Assembly (NCBI GenBank): GCA_902555055.1
Contig: CACDQN010000005.1
Coordinates: 1 to 62,226 of the forward strand
DNA: 62,226 bases
From: an uncultured Candidatus Actinomarina sp.
GTDB taxonomy: Bacteria; Actinomycetota; Acidimicrobiia; Actinomarinales; Actinomarinaceae
Direction of reading: 5' to 3'
How positions within the stretch are numbered: position 1 is the stretch's first letter; the number at the start of each line of letters is the position of its first letter. A program made the translations under genes and the position numbers. Below, piece after piece: positions 5,919-41,060 of the stretch. The notes beneath the pieces were generated by a model that had not been told where the DNA came from, did no database searches, and saw nothing but the letters and a program-made list of their open reading frames with translations.

Positions 5919-6407
5919 ATGTTAAAAAGAAATCTTATTCTTCTACTGTTGGCTTTAACCCTCGGTGTAGTCATTGTTAACTCACCTCTGAAAAGTAATT
6001 CAGAAAGTAGTATGTATTCGACAGTTAACGATGGTATTGTTTTAAATGAACTTCTAGAGATTGATAATTTCACTAAATCTAACAATATTACAATATTGAA
6101 TCTTTGGGCAAGTTGGTGCATTCCATGTCAAAATGAGGTAGAAGAATTAAAGAAAATAAGCCAAAATGAAAATTATCAAGTAATAGGAATATTAGTTGAT
6201 GACTCTGTTGAAAATGGTAAAGAGTTTATTCTAAAAAATAATATCAACTACATCAATGTACTGGATGAATTCAGTGCAGACCAATTATTAATTAAATTTA
6301 TGTGGAGTGGTATCCCAACAACTATAATACTTAATCAAAATCTTGAGATTCTTTACACAATTAATGGAGAAATAACTGCAAAAGAAATATTTAATCTTTC
6401 AGATTAA
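5919..6407 (+). CDS. TlpA/ResA-like thiol-disulfide oxidoreductase
   Basis: N-terminal signal or TM segment, NLWASWCIPC, GIPTT cis-Pro motif. Confidence 0.88.
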   Translation: MLKRNLILLLLALTLGVVIVNSPLKSNSESSMYSTVNDGIVLNELLEIDNFTKSNNITILNLWASWCIPCQNEVEELKKISQNENYQVIGILVDDSVENGKEFILKNNINYINVLDEFSADQLLIKFMWSGIPTTIILNQNLEILYTINGEITAKEIFNLSD

Positions 6408-36971: not shown

Positions 36972-37700
36972 ATGTCACAAAAAATAACAGTTAAAATATT
37001 TACAAAAACTTTTATTTTGTTTCCTATTTTTATGGTTTGTGTCTTTTCTCCACTGATGATCTCGATAGTCTTAACTTCGTTTTTGCCAAAAGGAAGGCAT
37101 CTTGCAACTAAGCTATATGAATTTTTTGGATGGATTGGTTTAAAATTTGTTGGAATTAATTTAATAGTAGAAGGTGTAGAAAAAATAGACACTAATAAAA
37201 GTTATGTAGTTGTATCCAATCATCCTTCAACACTAGATATTTTTACACATATAACCGCACTTCCGGTATCTATTCGATTTTTAACTAAATCTGAATTATT
37301 TAGAATACCTATTTTTGGAAGAGTGCTTAAAGTTTTAGGATTACCAAGAATTGATAGAGAAAATGCTAGTGCAAACTTTGATAAAATAAATTACTCTATC
37401 AAAAAAGTATTAGAACATAAAAACTCGATAATGATTTTTCCCGAAGGCAAGAGAAGTAATCAGAAAGATTTACTCCCTTTCAAAAAAGGAGCTGCATTCA
37501 TTTCTAAAGATTTTAATTTACCTATCATTCCTGTAGTTTCACATAATGCTCATAATTTAATGGTTAAAGGAAAAGTTTGGCTTAAAAGTGGAGATGTTCG
37601 TATAGAAATTATGGATCCAATTGACAACCCCAATGACTATACAGTAGACGAACTTACTTCTAAATTAGAATCGATAATTAAAAAAAAATTACTCGTTTAA
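36972..37700 (+). CDS. plsC: 1-acyl-sn-glycerol-3-phosphate acyltransferase
   Basis: NHPSTLD, IFPEGKRS, PFKKGA. Confidence 0.92.
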   Translation: MSQKITVKIFTKTFILFPIFMVCVFSPLMISIVLTSFLPKGRHLATKLYEFFGWIGLKFVGINLIVEGVEKIDTNKSYVVVSNHPSTLDIFTHITALPVSIRFLTKSELFRIPIFGRVLKVLGLPRIDRENASANFDKINYSIKKVLEHKNSIMIFPEGKRSNQKDLLPFKKGAAFISKDFNLPIIPVVSHNAHNLMVKGKVWLKSGDVRIEIMDPIDNPNDYTVDELTSKLESIIKKKLLV

Positions 37701-38234
37701 AAATTTATCAATAAAAATATGTAACGATTCTAAAATTTCATTATTTTCAGTTATATCATCAAGATTTAAATGGTCAGACTTGGTAATAAGATGAAAGTTT
37801 TCAAAGACAAACAAGCCATAATTTGATAATTGCATACTCAAAATTTCGAAAGCTTTTTCTGCATTTCCACCCACTCCTTTTACAGTTGTTACAACTGCTA
37901 CGTGTTTATCTTTAAAGAGTGAGTTATATCTTCTGTCATCATAAGCTAATGAAAGCCAGTCTAAAGCATTCTTTAAATGCGCAAGGAAACCTCCGTTATA
38001 AACTGGACTAAAAATAATTAATTTATTTGATTTTTCTAAAGATTTTCTCATATTAACTATTTTTTCTGGAACATTGTCATTTGGATCAAGTAAAAATGGA
38101 ATACCCTCAAAAAGATTTTCATAAATATTATTATCAAGATTATTTTCACTCATGTGATCACTAAGATGCCTTGCTAGTTGGCTGTTGTGTGAATCTTTGC
38201 TTGTGCCAGCACTTAAAATTAATATTTTTGACAT
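37689..38234 (-). CDS. NADPH-dependent FMN reductase family protein
   Basis: SPVYNGGFLAHLKNALDWLS. Confidence 0.88.
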   Translation of the reverse strand: MSKILILSAGTSKDSHNSQLARHLSDHMSENNLDNNIYENLFEGIPFLLDPNDNVPEKIVNMRKSLEKSNKLIIFSPVYNGGFLAHLKNALDWLSLAYDDRRYNSLFKDKHVAVVTTVKGVGGNAEKAFEILSMQLSNYGLFVFENFHLITKSDHLNLDDITENNEILESLHIFIDKFLNE

Positions 38235-38262
38235 GATATAAGTATGTAATTAAATTTGTTAT

Positions 38263-38598
38263 ATGGAAAACGAAAATATAAATTTATTTTCAAAACTGGA
38301 TATTCGAGTGGGAAAGATAGTCTCAGCTGAAAAATTCAAAGAAGCGATTAAACCAGCATATATATTAACCATAGATTTTGGTTTGGATATTGGCATTAAG
38401 AAAACCAGTGCTCAAGTTACAAATTACACATTAAAAGAGCTTGAAAATAAAAACTGTATTGCTGTTATTAATCTTGGTGATAAACAAATTGGACCAATCA
38501 TGAGTCAATGTTTAGTTTTAGGTTCTATATCTCCTAATGGGGATGTACTCCTATTAAGTCCAGATACAAATGCAAAATTAGGCGATAAGATTTCTTAG
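38263..38598 (+). CDS. csaA: CsaA/Trbp111-like tRNA-binding chaperone
   Basis: LDIRVGKI, KPAY..IDFG, KKTSAQ, KQIG..MSQCLVLG. Confidence 0.9.
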   Translation: MENENINLFSKLDIRVGKIVSAEKFKEAIKPAYILTIDFGLDIGIKKTSAQVTNYTLKELENKNCIAVINLGDKQIGPIMSQCLVLGSISPNGDVLLLSPDTNAKLGDKIS

Positions 38599-39068
38599 CT
38601 TGTTTTGTTTAAAAAATAATTGGGGTTAAATGTCCCAACTCTTCGACCCAGTTTTTCACCATGATTATCGATTAATACATACGTAGGAGTGTTATAAAGT
38701 TTGTAAGTTTCTATAAATGGGTGGTCTTTCTGCTTACTTGCATTTATAGAAACAAAATATATTTTGGGGTTATTCTTCTTAAATTCATCAACTATGAATT
38801 TTGATGCTGTACATCCCAGTCAGTAATCTGAATAGAATTCAATGATTGAGTATTCATGATCAGAAAAGTTATATGAATCATCTACCATTTTTCTATTTGA
38901 AGTATAAAAAAATAGAGCATAAAATATTCCAATAACTCCAAAACTTAAAAAATAAAGTGCTGATATAGGTTCAAAAGCTATAAAAAATATTGCAAGGCCT
39001 ACAACCCAAGCAACAGGTAAATATATCAAACTATATCTGTTTAATATTTTTAAAAATTTTTTTTTCAT
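38595..39068 (-). CDS. membrane-anchored thioredoxin-fold protein with in-frame TGA at a U-x-x-C site (candidate selenoprotein, 157 aa)
   Basis: Readthrough of TGA at 38822-38820 gives ...IIEFYSDY-U-LGCTASKFIVDEFKKNNPKIYFVSINAS...YKLYNTPTYMLIDNHGEKLGRRVGTFNPNYFLNKTS*, ending at TAA 38597-38595. Confidence 0.8.
38781..38801 (-). promoter_or_regulatory. candidate bacterial SECIS hairpin
   Basis: AAAUUCAU-AGUUG-AUGAAUUU: 8-bp stem, with 26 nt between the UGA and the loop and G at loop position 2. Confidence 0.5.
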
Positions 39069-39102
39069 GACTTCGGTATCCTTCCTTATAATATACTTGA
39101 AT

Positions 39103-39513
39103 ATGGACTTCGCTAATCATTTGAAAAAAAGGGGTTACAGAATTACCAATGCTAGAGAAGTAATTTGTACAATCTTAGAAAATGCAGGACATAAACACTT
39201 TACTGTTGAGGAGCTGCACAATGAATCAATAAAGAGGGATAAAAATATTGACTTAGCAACAGTATATAGAACTTTGGAAGTGTTAGAAGATATTGATATT
39301 ATTGAGCACTCTCATCAAGTACATGGATCTGGTGTTTTTTATTTAAAGAATGAGTACTCAAACTTTCATATTATTTGTGAATTTTGTAAAAAAATTTTTG
39401 ATTTAGAAGAAAGCACTAGTAAAAAAATAAATGATTTAGTAAGAAAAGATTCTAATTTTAAGGTTATAAACAACGATTTTATATATTCAGGTCAATGTAA
39501 AAACTGTAATTGA
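39103..39513 (+). CDS. Fur-family metalloregulator, Nur-like
   Basis: GYRIT..R, ATVYRTL, HSHQVHG (Nur-type HxHxxHG) and two CxxC motifs. Start taken at ATG 39103. Confidence 0.85.
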   Translation: MDFANHLKKRGYRITNAREVICTILENAGHKHFTVEELHNESIKRDKNIDLATVYRTLEVLEDIDIIEHSHQVHGSGVFYLKNEYSNFHIICEFCKKIFDLEESTSKKINDLVRKDSNFKVINNDFIYSGQCKNCN

Positions 39514-39516
39514 TTC

Positions 39517-39543
39517 TGTTATTGCAAACTATTTGCAGTAACA
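39517..39543. promoter_or_regulatory. Nur-type operator palindrome upstream of cbiQO
   Basis: TGTTATTGCAAA-CTA-TTTGCAGTAACA, 11 of 12 positions symmetric; core TTGCAA-N5-TTGCAG. Confidence 0.7.
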
Positions 39544-39552
39544 TAATAAATT

Positions 39553-40317
39553 ATGGACACAAGTCATTCGCATCATTTAGAAATACATGGAAATTCGATA
39601 TTAAGCGAATTAAAGCCAGAACTTAAAATATTTACAACATTTTGTATTGTTTTTTCAATAGCTTTTTTAAGCCTTGAAAATAATCTTTTTATATTTTTAC
39701 AATTTTTTATAGTTTTATATTTTCTTTTTATTTCAAAAATTAAAGTTAAAACATACTTTAAAAGACTCTCAATTGATATACCTTTCATACTTTTTGCATT
39801 ATTTTTACCATTTATTAGTAAGGGTGATAATAAAGTAATGTTTGAATTCTTCTCAGTTTCTGTATATGAAACTGGTTTTAATGAGATGATATCGATTTTA
39901 ATAAAAATTACCCTTTGTGTTTCTTTGGCCATAGTTTTAACCGCAACTACATCAAATATTGAAATAATATATGGACTTCAAAAATTAAAATTGTCACCAT
40001 TATTAATATCAATTCTTTCATTTGCAATTAGATATATTGATGTATTTATTGATGAGTTCAAGCGAGTAAGAGTTGCAATGAAATCTAGAGGATATGATGA
40101 GAAAGGCATCAAAGGACTTAAGCCTATTGCTTATGCTTCTGGCGCACTCCTCATAAGAGGCTATGAAAGAGGTGAGAGGGTTTATAACTCTATGCTTTCA
40201 CGAGGGTTTACTGGTTCCATAGAGCTTAAAGAAAGAGAGTATAAATCTTCTAAATCATTACTGCTATTTTCTACAATTTCCATATGTATAACAATTATTG
40301 ATAGGGTTCTAATATGA
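39553..40317 (+). CDS. cbiQ: Co/Ni ECF transporter T component
   Basis: His-rich N-terminus, IRYIDV, AMKSRG, RGYERGERVYNSMLSRGF. Confidence 0.9.
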   Translation: MDTSHSHHLEIHGNSILSELKPELKIFTTFCIVFSIAFLSLENNLFIFLQFFIVLYFLFISKIKVKTYFKRLSIDIPFILFALFLPFISKGDNKVMFEFFSVSVYETGFNEMISILIKITLCVSLAIVLTATTSNIEIIYGLQKLKLSPLLISILSFAIRYIDVFIDEFKRVRVAMKSRGYDEKGIKGLKPIAYASGALLIRGYERGERVYNSMLSRGFTGSIELKEREYKSSKSLLLFSTISICITIIDRVLI

Positions 40318-41060
40318 AGAAACCATATTTAAGTGTAAAAGATTTGAGCTTCGAGTATCCTGATGGATTTAAAGCCCTAAAGAACATTACTTTCGAACTT
40401 TCAAAAAATGAACGAGTTGCAGTTCTCGGGCCAAATGGTGCCGGTAAAACAACATTTATTCTTCATCTAAATGGAATTCTTGGAAATTTAGATGAAGAAA
40501 TAGAAATAAATCATTTAAAATACTCACAAGAAAATATTAATAAAATTAGAAAAACTGTTGGTTTAGTATTTCAAGATCCAGATGACCAGTTGTTTATGCC
40601 GACAGTGTTAGAAGATGTCATGTTTGGGCCAAAAAATTTTGGATTTTCAATCGAAGAAGCAGAACAAAATGCAATAGAGGCACTTCAAAAAGTAAAAATG
40701 TTAGATTATGCAGAAAAACCTCCTCACCATTTAAGTTTTGGTCAAAAAAGAAAAGTGGCAATAGCATCTGTCTTGGCTTCAAAACCAGAACTCTTGGTAC
40801 TAGATGAACCAAGTTCCAACCTAGACCCTGCGTCCCGTAGGGAACTAGTCGAAATATTAAAAAATTTAGATATATCTTTAATTCTTGTAACGCATGATAT
40901 ACCAATGGCACTAGAAATTTGTAAACGAAGCATAATTTTAAATGGCGGGAAAATTACGACAGATGATGAGACGTATATGATCTTAAAAGACAGAAATACA
41001 ATGGAAGAAAATAGATTAGAACTTCCGTTTGGGTTTGCTCTACATCATTTGGATGAATGA
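40314..41060 (+). CDS. cbiO: Co/Ni ECF transporter ATPase
   Basis: GPNGAGKT, VFQDPDDQLF, LSFGQK, LDEPSS. Confidence 0.92.
   Translation: MKKPYLSVKDLSFEYPDGFKALKNITFELSKNERVAVLGPNGAGKTTFILHLNGILGNLDEEIEINHLKYSQENINKIRKTVGLVFQDPDDQLFMPTVLEDVMFGPKNFGFSIEEAEQNAIEALQKVKMLDYAEKPPHHLSFGQKRKVAIASVLASKPELLVLDEPSSNLDPASRRELVEILKNLDISLILVTHDIPMALEICKRSIILNGGKITTDDETYMILKDRNTMEENRLELPFGFALHHLDE

What the first reader, a model, noticed from the sequence alone, without database searches (positions are those of the whole stretch)
38595..39068. Hidden candidate selenoprotein: membrane-anchored thioredoxin with UxxC and a SECIS-like hairpin
Seen: the 82-aa ORF called at 38820-39068 stops at a TGA exactly where the first Cys of a thioredoxin CxxC belongs (IIEFYSDY-TGA-LGC). 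The frame then stays open for 74 more codons with a thioredoxin pattern (helix, FVSIN strand, cis-Pro NTPTY, LID..G...G) and ends overlapping the csaA stop by 4 bp, like other convergent genes here. Without readthrough a roughly 220-bp gap would be left in a very compact genome. An 8-bp hairpin with a G at loop position 2 lies 26 nt after the UGA. TGA ends other genes normally (sdhD, sdhB, cbiO, glmM), so global recoding is unlikely. Known: Sec replaces the attacking Cys in UxxC oxidoreductases, and bacterial SECIS elements sit just 3' of the UGA. Inference: this is a two-TM selenoprotein, possibly an undescribed family, implying Sec machinery in a streamlined actinobacterium.
Basis: partly seen in the sequence, partly recalled or inferred. 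Interest (0 to 1): 0.9.

Follow-up and report, generated by a model that had tools for sequence, protein, structure and literature searches.

The report
Membrane-anchored selenocysteine thioredoxin of Actinomarina
A small gene that seems to be cut short by a stop codon is really a complete membrane-tethered thioredoxin whose reactive cysteine is replaced by selenocysteine, and it is kept in this form throughout a very abundant genus of tiny ocean bacteria.

Summary
On the minus strand, 39068..38595 is one 157-codon gene with an in-frame TGA at 38822..38820. It encodes two membrane helices and a thioredoxin fold with U83-L-G-C86 and cis-Pro128 (AF2 pLDDT 91.9).

The genome has selA, selB, tRNA-Sec and a Sec-containing selD. 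TGA ends 107 of 478 long ORFs, and the only UCA-anticodon tRNA is tRNA-Sec.

- All 31 congeneric homologs and all 50 Candidatus Actinomarina/Actinomarinales loci keep TGA.
- Distant full-length homologs carry Cys there (19 of 22).
- Further Sec forms occur in other lineages.
- A 7-bp hairpin lies 19 nt after the UGA with loop A/G-G-U-Y-G/A. Its synonymous sites are frozen. Its stem is rewritten by compensatory changes between lineages: 5 of 7 pairs, 98% of cells paired, 0 of 500 shuffles.

This is a new member of a known kind. UxxC Trx-like selenoproteins are known from ocean metagenomes, and Sec use in Actinomarina was reported in a 2026 preprint. The membrane side, the substrate and the protein product remain untested.

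The parts
38595..39068 (-). Complete selenoprotein gene, 157 codons plus TAA stop: a two-helix membrane anchor followed by a thioredoxin-fold domain
   Evidence: Translation with TGA=U. Full-length homologs with one TGA in 31 of 36 congeners and in 50 of 50 named loci. AF2 model pLDDT 91.9, pTM 0.83.
38820..38822 (-). Sec codon UGA (residue U83), aligned with the first Cys of the CxxC motif in homologs
   Evidence: In alignment A2, column U83 is C in 19 of 22 distant homologs and W (TGA read by table 4) in 3. TGA is invariant.
38782..38800 (-). Bacterial SECIS core: 7-bp stem AAUUCAU/AUGAAUU with 5-nt loop AGUUG. In this window an 8th pair (38801-38781) can form but is not conserved.
   Evidence: Paired in 30 of 30 congeners. 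Synonymous sites are frozen. Across four lineages, 5 of 7 pairs show compensatory change and 98.1% of cells are paired, reached by 0 of 500 shuffles. The geometry fits the published bSECIS model (PMC13188914).
38811..38813 (-). Resolving cysteine C86 of the U-L-G-C redox motif
   Evidence: Invariant column C86 in A2. One congener (L031) has F here.
38685..38687 (-). cis-proline P128 (T-P-T-Y) of the thioredoxin fold
   Evidence: Invariant column P128 in A2. It precedes strand 129-134 in the model.
38982..39032 (-). Membrane helix 1 (residues 13-29), preceded by a Lys/Arg-rich N-terminus and the conserved N10-x-x-S13 motif
   Evidence: AF2 helix 13-29. Hydropathy 2.5 and N-terminal K+R = 5. N10 and S13 are nearly invariant.
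38898..38966 (-). Membrane helix 2 (residues 35-57)
   Evidence: AF2 helix 35-57. Hydropathy 2.1.
38598..38858 (-). Thioredoxin-fold domain (residues 71-157), which spans the UGA
   Evidence: Pfam Thioredoxin_2 matches residues 71-153 (24 bits, cut-off 27) and Thioredoxin matches 71-145 (23.0 bits, cut-off 23.5). Foldseek best hits are thioredoxins 2e0q and 2yzu, TM(target) 0.75-0.77.

Best explanation
Window 39068..38595 (minus strand) is one intact gene for a 157-residue selenoprotein.

Decoding. UGA83 is decoded as selenocysteine. SelB carrying Sec-tRNA(Sec) is recruited by a small stem-loop inside the coding sequence. The stem starts 19 nt after the UGA, has a 7-bp core and carries the loop AGUUG. 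The organism supplies the machinery: selA, selB, selC and a selD that is itself a selenoprotein.

Product. The protein is a hairpin of two membrane helices that tethers a minimal thioredoxin fold. Its redox centre is U83-L-G-C86, opposite cis-Pro128.

Inferred chemistry, not shown. The selenolate attacks a substrate disulfide or sulfenic acid. C86 resolves the mixed selenenylsulfide, and the resulting Se-S bond is re-reduced.

Membrane side (about 55:45). The Lys/Arg-rich N-terminus and the uncharged inter-helix loop predict that the catalytic domain faces the cytoplasm. There, thioredoxin reductase (present) could recycle it.

Shown here: the gene structure, the conservation of the UGA, the Cys/Sec homolog pairing, the constraint and covariation on the hairpin, the Sec machinery and the fold. 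Inferred: actual Sec insertion, the redox role, the topology and the partners.
For: Gene and fold.
- The frame is open across one TGA.
- The Pfam thioredoxin matches span the TGA.
- AF2 gives pLDDT 91.9 and pTM 0.83, with helices 13-29 and 35-57 followed by beta-U83-alpha-beta-alpha-(cisP128)-beta-beta-alpha.
- The best Foldseek PDB matches are classical thioredoxins.

Machinery.
- selA scores 307.8 bits.
- selB is adjacent and matches positions 2-570 of 581.
- tRNA-Sec was found by Rfam (74.8 bits) and by ARAGORN.
- selD has one in-frame TGA at the active site.

Not a code change.
- 107 of 478 long ORFs end in TGA.
- tRNA-Trp has anticodon CCA.
- The only UCA-anticodon tRNA is SeC.

Conservation.
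- 31 of 36 congeners have the gene, and all 31 carry exactly one TGA, down to 47% identity.
- The 5 congeners without it also lack the neighbouring csaA, which points to assembly gaps.
- 50 of 50 Actinomarina/Actinomarinales loci have TGA.
- dN/dS is about 0.12 downstream and about 0.20 upstream of the TGA.

Cys/Sec pairing.
- 19 of 22 distant full-length homologs have CxxC at the aligned site.
- The 3 homologs with W are represented by 6 metagenomic loci, all with TGA.
- Four further full-length Sec forms occur in two other Actinomycetota families with GC 48-71%.

SECIS.
- The 7-bp stem is paired in 30 of 30 congeners.
- Third-position entropy over codons +6..+12 is 0.19 bit against a gene mean of 0.92. 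This is the lowest of all 7-codon windows among 53 distinct sequences.
- dS there is 0.40 against 1.6-2.0 in the flanks.
- Across 22 sequences of four lineages the stem sequence differs (AAUUCAU, AGCCUGU, AGCCCGU, GUCCAU) but stays paired. 98.1% of cells are paired, 5 of 7 pairs and 35 cells show compensatory change, and the covariation score is 0.65. All of these were reached by 0 of 500 shuffles. Slid registers pair in 45% of cells or fewer.
- Loop size (5 nt), stem length (7 bp), G at loop position 2 followed by U, and a 26-nt UGA-to-loop distance all fit the published bSECIS model (PMC13188914).

RNA. A 271-nt contig from one metatranscriptome library, identical to the window, spans 38635..38902 across the TGA.

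Topology.
- N-terminal K+R is 4-5 and loop K+R is 0-1 in 7 of 7 Actinomarina-group sequences.
- TrxB and TrxA are present.
- A separate single-anchor WCIPC Redoxin protein at window 5919..6407 already fills the usual extracytoplasmic ResA/TlpA role.
Against: - There is no protein-level evidence: no 75Se labelling and no peptide.
- The hairpin is weak, at -3.7 kcal/mol alone and -3.72 as a consensus. It does not meet the model's MFE criterion of -7.5 or lower on its own. The 81-nt region is no more stable than shuffles (z -0.14).
- Within the genus, covariation is thin: one compensatory pair, reached by 55 of 500 shuffles.
- The cross-lineage covariation rests on about four lineages, so on few independent events. 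Part of the loop (codons V-D) is also conserved at protein level in Cys forms.
- P0001 scores just below Pfam's cut-offs (24 against 27, and 23.0 against 23.5). selB is below NCBIfam's cut-off (223 against 242).
- The RNA-library contig may derive from DNA carried in the library, as the tool itself warns.
- Topology rests only on the positive-inside rule. 16 of 29 family members show the opposite charge bias. CcdA, which could feed an outward-facing domain, is present in 30 of 40 congeners, though not found in this 82%-complete genome.
- No conserved gene neighbourhood across lineages points to a substrate.
Confidence: 0.88

Rival explanations
1. The selenoprotein is the same, but the thioredoxin domain faces outward (N-out/C-out). 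It would then act like TlpA/ResA/CcmG-type extracytoplasmic thiol-disulfide reductases, drawing electrons through CcdA. This rivals only the topology and partner part of the best explanation.
For: 16 of 29 family members have a Lys/Arg-rich inter-helix loop and an uncharged N-terminus, which predicts an outward-facing domain. Homologs rarely differ in topology. CcdA (DsbD_TM) is found in 30 of 40 congeners. The Thr before the cis-Pro is, from recall only, typical of periplasmic reductases and isomerases.
Against: All 7 Actinomarina-group sequences have 4-5 Lys/Arg before helix 1 and 0-1 in the loop. A canonical single-anchor WCIPC Redoxin protein is already present at window 5919..6407. The best structural matches are cytoplasmic-type thioredoxins, not TlpA/ResA. 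No ccdA or cytochrome-maturation gene lies nearby in any lineage examined.
Confidence: 0.4
2. The TGA is a real stop. The gene makes only the 82-residue membrane peptide, and the downstream frame is an untranslated relic or a separate gene.
For: Standard gene callers stop there: 4 of 72 database proteins end at ...YSDY. TGA is a normal stop elsewhere in this genome.
Against: The downstream 74 codons are under purifying selection, with dN/dS about 0.12. They stay open in every homolog and have no start codon that would give an ORF of 40 aa or more. They also complete a single thioredoxin fold whose first strand lies upstream of the TGA. Homologs have Cys at the site.
Confidence: 0.03
3. The UGA is read through as a standard amino acid (Trp, Cys or Gly), by near-cognate decoding or a local recoding signal unrelated to selenocysteine.
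For: Public gene calls translate it as W under table 4 in 65 of 72 cases. The hairpin could in principle stimulate readthrough of another kind.
Against: There is no suppressor tRNA: tRNA-Trp is CCA and the only UCA-anticodon tRNA is tRNA-Sec. A complete Sec machinery is kept in a 1-Mb genome. The site is the catalytic Cys position. The hairpin matches the bSECIS geometry, including the G-U in the loop.
Confidence: 0.05
4. Sequencing or assembly error turned TGT/TGC into TGA.
For: None beyond the general possibility in single-cell and metagenome assemblies.
Against: TGA occurs in 31 of 31, 50 of 50, 6 of 6 and 4 of 4 independent assemblies from many studies. No variant appears at 38820..38822 in the RNA-library contigs that cover it.
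Confidence: 0.005

Closest known systems
[quoted passage not shown]
   Same: Thioredoxin fold. Sec replaces the first Cys of CxxC. A bSECIS lies just 3' of the UGA and Cys homologs exist. The setting is marine surface water. GOS 'Trx-like 3' (UxxC, weak cd02950 similarity, 212 Sec sequences in 33 samples, 183 Cys homologs, enriched in marine samples) could be this very family (PMC2398784, passages read; family table of PMC13188914).
   Different: The passages read do not mention a two-helix membrane anchor. The words 'membrane' and 'transmembrane' occur 0 times in PMC2398784. No curated selenoprotein model of NCBIfam matched P0001 at E<=0.01. Identity with Trx-like 3 could not be tested, because no sequences are given in the text and supplements are closed.
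Predicted Actinomarina selenoproteome (bioRxiv 10.64898/2026.04.03.716425)
   Same: Same genus. The preprint reports selA, selB, selC and selD in all 84 complete genomes, SelD as a selenoprotein, and about 5 deep-Sep-predicted selenoproteins per genome. This gene is probably among them.
   Different: The main text never uses the words 'thioredoxin' or 'membrane' and has no '157'. Its Rfam SECIS searches found nothing significant. Families were grouped by the first 20 residues and mostly left uncharacterised. Its supplementary tables could not be read.
TlpA / ResA / CcmG (DsbE) membrane-anchored thiol-disulfide reductases
   Same: A membrane-tethered thioredoxin-fold reductase with CxxC and a Thr-cisPro.
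   Different: Those proteins have one N-terminal anchor, an outward-facing domain, a WCxPC motif and an extra insert. Here there are two helices, Y-U-L-G-C and a minimal fold that resembles classical thioredoxin. Only weak sub-threshold DsbE/TlpA hits were seen, and only in two distant homologs. A canonical member already exists at window 5919..6407.
Escherichia coli fdhF-type bacterial SECIS (consensus bSECIS model)
   Same: A stem-loop inside the coding sequence, with G then U/G at the start of a small apical loop, 16-37 nt from the UGA (PMC13188914). The high-GC relatives carry loop GGUCG.
   Different: The hairpin is very short and AU-rich in Actinomarina, at -3.7 kcal/mol. No conserved lower stem was found.

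Membership tests
Bacterial selenoprotein gene (Sec-decoded UGA) | In-frame UGA conserved among orthologs, with conserved coding sequence on both sides | tested here: met
   31 of 31 congeners, 50 of 50 named loci, downstream dN/dS about 0.12.
Bacterial selenoprotein gene (Sec-decoded UGA) | Homologs with Cys aligned to the UGA position | tested here: met
   19 of 22 distant full-length homologs have C at the column of U83. None was found within the genus.
Bacterial selenoprotein gene (Sec-decoded UGA) | [quoted passage not shown] | tested here: met
   selB is full-length but 223 bits against a cut-off of 242.
Bacterial selenoprotein gene (Sec-decoded UGA) | Selenium actually incorporated into the protein | not testable with these tools
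   Needs 75Se labelling or mass spectrometry. The organism is uncultured.
bSECIS consensus model (PMC13188914, Fig. 2 legend) | 3-9 nt apical loop and 4-16 bp upper stem | tested here: met
   5-nt loop and 7-bp conserved stem.
bSECIS consensus model (PMC13188914, Fig. 2 legend) | G in one of the first two loop positions, usually followed by G or U | tested here: met
   The loop is AGUUG/AGUUA in Actinomarina and GGUCG in high-GC relatives. G37 and T38 are invariant in A5.
bSECIS consensus model (PMC13188914, Fig. 2 legend) | 16-37 nt between the UGA and the apical loop | tested here: met
   26 nt for the 8-bp form (18-nt spacer plus 8-nt arm), in the same register in all lineages.
bSECIS consensus model (PMC13188914, Fig. 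2 legend) | Minimum free energy of -7.5 kcal/mol or lower | tested here: inconclusive
   The hairpin alone is -3.7. The 81-82 nt context gives -9.9 to -11.2, but through unconserved pairs and with z -0.14. The 60-nt regions of relatives fold at -18.9 to -26.3 kcal/mol in other Actinomycetota, and 75-nt regions at -15.7 to -19.3 in the metagenomic loci.
Thioredoxin fold / Pfam PF00085, PF13098 | Score at or above Pfam's gathering cut-off | tested here: not met
   P0001 scores 23.0 against 23.5 (PF00085) and 24 against 27 (PF13098). All 8 scanned distant homologs (6 Cys forms and 2 W/TGA forms) pass PF00085, at 26.3-42.7 bits.
Thioredoxin fold / Pfam PF00085, PF13098 | CxxC-type motif at the N-terminus of helix 1, cis-Pro before strand 3, and a beta-alpha-beta-alpha-beta-beta-alpha core | tested here: met
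   U83-x-x-C86 precedes helix 84-99, and P128 precedes strand 129-134. Foldseek thioredoxin hits have probability 1.00 and TM(target) up to 0.77.
TlpA/ResA/CcmG (DsbE) family | Single N-terminal anchor, outward-facing domain, WCxPC-type motif and a family-model match | tested here: not met
   Two helices, the motif Y-U-L-G-C, and no DsbE/TlpA model hit for P0001 at E<=0.01. Orientation was not determined.
GOS 'Trx-like 3' selenoprotein family (PMC2398784) | Sequence membership in that cluster (UxxC, weak cd02950 similarity) | not testable with these tools
   Only the table rows were read. No sequences are in the text, no CDD library is on hand, and supplements are closed.

The most novel reading that the evidence does not exclude
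This gene may found an uncurated family of two-helix, membrane-tethered selenothioredoxins. The family would have switched between Cys and Sec several times, carrying the same in-frame SECIS register (loop N-G-U-Y-R, 26 nt from the UGA) across genomes of 30% to 71% GC. It would also have inverted its membrane topology between lineages. In Actinomarina the domain would face the cytoplasm and act as a dedicated membrane-proximal reductase, for example repairing oxidised membrane proteins or lipids in a light-exposed rhodopsin photoheterotroph. No Cys back-up was seen anywhere in the genus. If that holds, selenium would be an obligatory micronutrient for one of the most abundant bacteria of the surface ocean.
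Probability: 0.25. Interest if true: 0.7.

Novelty: new member of a known kind. Interest (0 to 1): 0.5.

Why it matters
This is a clean, strongly supported case of a gene that standard annotation breaks. Public databases hold it either truncated at 82-87 residues or mistranslated with Trp at the catalytic site.

It gives a function-bearing target, a thioredoxin-fold redox protein, for the Sec machinery that a roughly 1-Mb streamlined ocean bacterium pays to keep. The universal TGA, with no Cys variant in 50 species-level genomes, suggests a real dependence on selenium.

The cross-lineage SECIS alignment has the same loop and register with rewritten stems. It offers a compact, testable model of a minimal AU-rich bacterial SECIS. 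It also gives a seed for a covariance model that could find such genes where Rfam models fail, as the preprint reports they do in this genus.

Tried and rejected
1. Genome-wide hunt for other selenoprotein genes. I used my own codon-usage score on ORFs with in-frame TGA. It produced 253 noisy candidates dominated by antisense frames and missed both selD and the target gene. I dropped it, so no count of selenoproteins in this genome is claimed.

2. selD SECIS comparison. The best fold has a UCA loop without G and no obvious likeness to the target's hairpin. Nothing was concluded from it.

3. Gene-neighbourhood inference.
- Within the genus the whole block cbiO-cbiQ-fur <> gene >< csaA-FMN_red-plsC is syntenic. 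Five of the six neighbours were each found in 49 of 50 loci and cbiO in 47, with the gaps at contig ends. The block therefore says nothing specific.
- In other lineages the neighbours differ: GNAT, ClpS, DUF3326, ABC-2, GFO/IDH, HD, hydrolase, HlyIII, SBP_bac_3 and PALP. No partner could be inferred.

4. 'Sec-ResA' idea, in which the protein would be the cytochrome-c-maturation reductase. A canonical WCIPC Redoxin protein exists in the window, which weakens the idea. ResB and CcdA were not found in this 82%-complete genome, so this remains untested.

5. Hairpin control in Cys forms. I obtained DNA only for four Cys-form Trx-like genes of a different, single-anchor type (L127, L130, L131, L133). 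None shows the G-U-loop hairpin at that offset. The sample is small and not from the two-helix subfamily, so this is a weak control.

6. RNA evidence. All four runs laid are Logan contigs from RNA libraries. Parts without cover mean nothing, and only one contig bridges the TGA.

Supplementary tables of the preprint and of the GOS paper could not be read. They may list this very gene.
Full report
**The observation**

On the minus strand an 82-codon ORF (39068..38820) stops at TGA 38822..38820, directly after ...IIEFYSDY. With TGA read as U, the frame continues for 74 codons to TAA at 38597..38595, giving a 157-residue protein (kept as P0001 with C for U). The end overlaps the stop of the convergent tRNA_bind (CsaA-like) gene by 4 bp. 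No separate ORF of 40 aa or more exists after the TGA. Pfam's Thioredoxin_2 and Thioredoxin models match residues 71-153 and 71-145, so both span the TGA. Both score just under their cut-offs, at 24 against 27 bits and 23.0 against 23.5 bits.

**The organism can decode Sec and has not reassigned TGA**

The window is contig C5 of a 1.01-Mb, 26-contig, 82%-complete genome with about 30-36% GC.
- It encodes selA at 307.8 bits.
- A full-length selB lies immediately downstream, matching model positions 2-570 of 581. It scores 223 bits against a cut-off of 242.
- tRNA-Sec scores 74.8 bits in Rfam, and ARAGORN calls it SeC with anticodon tca.
- selD scores 374.9 bits, and its own active site reads HGAG-TGA-ACK.

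TGA ends 107 of 478 ORFs of at least 300 codons, including the neighbouring cbiO, cbiQ and Fur-family genes. tRNA-Trp has anticodon CCA, and tRNA-Sec is the only tRNA with a UCA anticodon.

**Conservation of the in-frame TGA**

A six-frame search of 60 relatives found the protein in 31 of 36 genomes of the same genus. Each of the 31 has exactly one TGA, at 47-81% identity over nearly the full length. None of 24 genomes from other families of the class gave a match. The five congeners without a match also lack the neighbouring csaA, so the region is probably unassembled there.

A scan of species-representative genomes returned 50 loci. Most titles read Candidatus Actinomarina, Actinomarinales or OCS155. 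All 50 have TGA at the site. This set overlaps the first.

Of 72 database proteins, 65 carry W at the position, which is the same TGA read under table 4 on short low-GC contigs. Four end at ...YSDY, and three are chimeras or fragments. None has Cys.

Against the window's sequence, dN/dS is about 0.12 for codons +14..+66 and about 0.20 for the 24 codons before the TGA. Only 16-18 of 52 comparisons had unsaturated dS.

**Cys homologs and further Sec forms**

An exhaustive HMMER search found 158 proteins with E<=0.001. I fetched 23 of them. Twenty-two are distant (19-30% identity) proteins of 157-180 residues with the same layout: a short N-terminus with a conserved N-x-x-S, two hydrophobic helices, then the thioredoxin domain.

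In the 29-row alignment A2, U83 falls on the first Cys of CxxC. The site is C in 19 of the 22 and W in 3. S80, C86 and P128 are invariant. The three W forms led to six metagenomic loci, all with TGA at that codon.

A profile search of 400 genomes of the phylum found four more full-length matches with one TGA in two other families: L110, L112 and L113 (GC 66-71%) and L111 (GC 48%). None of these four comes from a genome flagged as unpublished.

No NCBIfam model specific to a selenoprotein family matched P0001 at E<=0.01. Only generic thioredoxin-type models did, far below their cut-offs. Eight distant homologs (six Cys forms and two W/TGA forms) pass Pfam's Thioredoxin cut-off.

**The SECIS**

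Within the genus, the 7-bp core AAUUCAU/AUGAAUU pairs in 30 of 30 sequences. It shows one U-A to C-G exchange and U.G or G.U intermediates. The eighth pair is not kept. That is too little variation for the shuffle test, which reached the observed value in 55 of 500 shuffles.

The stronger signals are these.
1. Synonymous freezing. Among 53 distinct sequences, the third-position entropy of codons +8..+11 is zero. The 7-codon window starting at +6 averages 0.19 bit against 0.92 for the gene, the lowest of all windows. dS there is 0.40 against 1.6-2.0 in the flanks.
2. Covariation between lineages. In a gap-free alignment of 22 sequences from Actinomarina, the metagenomic clade and the two other actinobacterial families, the stem reads AAUUCAU, AGCCUGU/AGCCUAU, AGCCCGU or GUCCAU. 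It stays paired in 98.1% of cells. Five of 7 pairs and 35 cells show changes on both sides, and the covariation score is 0.65. No shuffle of 500 reached these values, and slid registers pair in 45% of cells or fewer.

The loop is A/G-G-U-Y-G/A throughout.

Loop size, stem length, G at loop position 2 followed by U, and a 26-nt distance all meet the published bSECIS model (PMC13188914, passages read).

Caveats:
- The Actinomarina hairpin alone is only -3.7 kcal/mol.
- The surrounding 81 nt fold no better than shuffles (z -0.14).
- The lineages number about four.
- The V-D codons in the loop are also conserved as protein.

**The protein**

AlphaFold2 on A2 gives pLDDT 91.9 and pTM 0.83. The model has helix 2-11, membrane helices 13-29 and 35-57, then strand 73-79, U83, helix 84-99, strand 103-109, helix 117-121, cis-Pro128, strands 129-134 and 139-144, and helix 149-156. 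Foldseek's best PDB matches are classical thioredoxins (2e0q, 2yzu and E. coli TrxA variants; TM on target 0.69-0.77) rather than TlpA/ResA types.

Charge counts put 4-5 Lys/Arg before helix 1 and 0-1 in the loop in all 7 Actinomarina-group sequences and in 5 distant ones. By the positive-inside rule this places the domain in the cytoplasm. Sixteen other members show the reverse pattern and one is ambiguous.

The genome has TrxB and a TrxA. It also has a separate single-anchor WCIPC Redoxin protein at window 5919..6407. CcdA was not found here but is present in 30 of 40 congeners. I therefore favour a cytoplasm-facing, membrane-tethered reductase, but only at about 55:45.

**Context and expression**

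Within the genus the block cbiO-cbiQ-Fur family <> this gene >< csaA-FMN_red-plsC is fully syntenic. Five of the six neighbours were each found in 49 of 50 loci and cbiO in 47, with the misses at contig ends. In other lineages the neighbours are unrelated. Context therefore gives no partner.

Four metatranscriptome libraries from four studies hold parts of the stretch. One 271-nt contig, identical to the window, bridges the TGA (38635..38902). These are contigs, and DNA carry-over cannot be excluded.

**What is known**

UxxC thioredoxin and Trx-like selenoproteins are established families (table in PMC13188914, passages read). The GOS survey lists Trx-like 1 and Trx-like 3. Trx-like 3 has UxxC, weak cd02950 similarity, 212 Sec sequences in 33 samples and 183 Cys homologs, and it is enriched in marine samples (PMC2398784, passages read). 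This gene may belong to it, but I could not test that.

A preprint of April 2026 reports selA, selB, selC and selD in all 84 complete Actinomarina genomes. It also reports a Sec form of SelD and about 5 deep-Sep-predicted selenoproteins per genome, mostly uncharacterised. Its main text contains neither 'thioredoxin' nor 'membrane', and its Rfam SECIS searches failed (10.64898/2026.04.03.716425; abstract and passages read).

My only search for earlier reports on this organism was 'Actinomarina' plus 'selenocysteine', which found that one paper. The searches were for selenoproteome reviews.

**Verdict**

The gene is a genuine, misannotated selenoprotein gene with a well-supported minimal SECIS. 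It is a new, uncurated member of a known kind rather than a new kind. Open points are Sec incorporation at the protein level, which side of the membrane the domain faces, and the substrate.

Noticed in passing
G000 contig C1:109467-110393 (outside the window): selD is itself a selenoprotein gene: one in-frame TGA at the active site, HGAG-U-ACK. This agrees with the 2026 preprint's statement for the genus.
   Followed up: partly
window 5919-6407 (+): A canonical single-anchor thiol-disulfide oxidoreductase of the ResA/TlpA type: signal-anchor N-terminus, WCIPC motif, Redoxin 33.5 bits. It sits in the same window and is distinct from the selenoprotein.
   Followed up: partly
alignment A2 (family of P0001): The two-helix thioredoxin family splits into two opposite charge-bias classes. 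Twelve members have a Lys/Arg-rich N-terminus and a neutral loop, 16 have the reverse, and 1 is ambiguous. This suggests inverted membrane topology among homologs.
   Followed up: partly
L031 (G032:C29), codon +3 after the TGA: One congener reads U-L-G-F-A, so it lacks the resolving cysteine. The SECIS hairpin is intact. It may be an assembly error or a one-cysteine variant.
   Followed up: no
database proteins P0002-P0073: Public gene calls for this gene are mostly wrong. Of 72, 65 carry Trp at the Sec codon (table 4 chosen for short low-GC contigs) and 4 are truncated at 87-117 residues. One truncated piece (P0065) is named 'c-di-AMP phosphodiesterase-like protein' by its source.
   Followed up: yes
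L074 (JAKVCV010000044.1, titled Saprospiraceae bacterium MAG): A 4.7-kb contig of a Bacteroidota-labelled MAG carries the Actinomarina-type gene (62% identity) with the full Actinomarina synteny. It is probably a binning contaminant.
   Followed up: no
loci L114, L117, L120, L129, L135, L137 and many rows: Many other Actinomycetota genomes carry single-anchor or lipoprotein-like Trx-like genes with one in-frame TGA at the CxxC site (U-P-x-C). They have a hairpin over the P-I/V-V-D-G-L codons at the same offset. This is a related and apparently widespread set of Sec-Trx-like genes.
   Followed up: partly
window 36972-41060 and loci L048-L097: The gene order cbiO-cbiQ-fur / selenoprotein / csaA-FMN_red-plsC is kept in every locus whose contig reaches far enough. 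[quoted passage not shown]
   Followed up: partly
window 39067-39103: The Fur-family ORF as listed starts 2 bp inside the selenoprotein's start codon on the other strand. tblastn matches in relatives begin about 35 nt from the selenoprotein start, so the two divergent genes share an intergenic region of only about 35 bp.
   Followed up: no
G000 contig C2:27750-27833: A second Rfam tRNA-Sec hit just over the gathering score (49.2 against 47 bits). ARAGORN finds only one tRNA-SeC in the genome, so this is probably a long-variable-arm tRNA.
   Followed up: no
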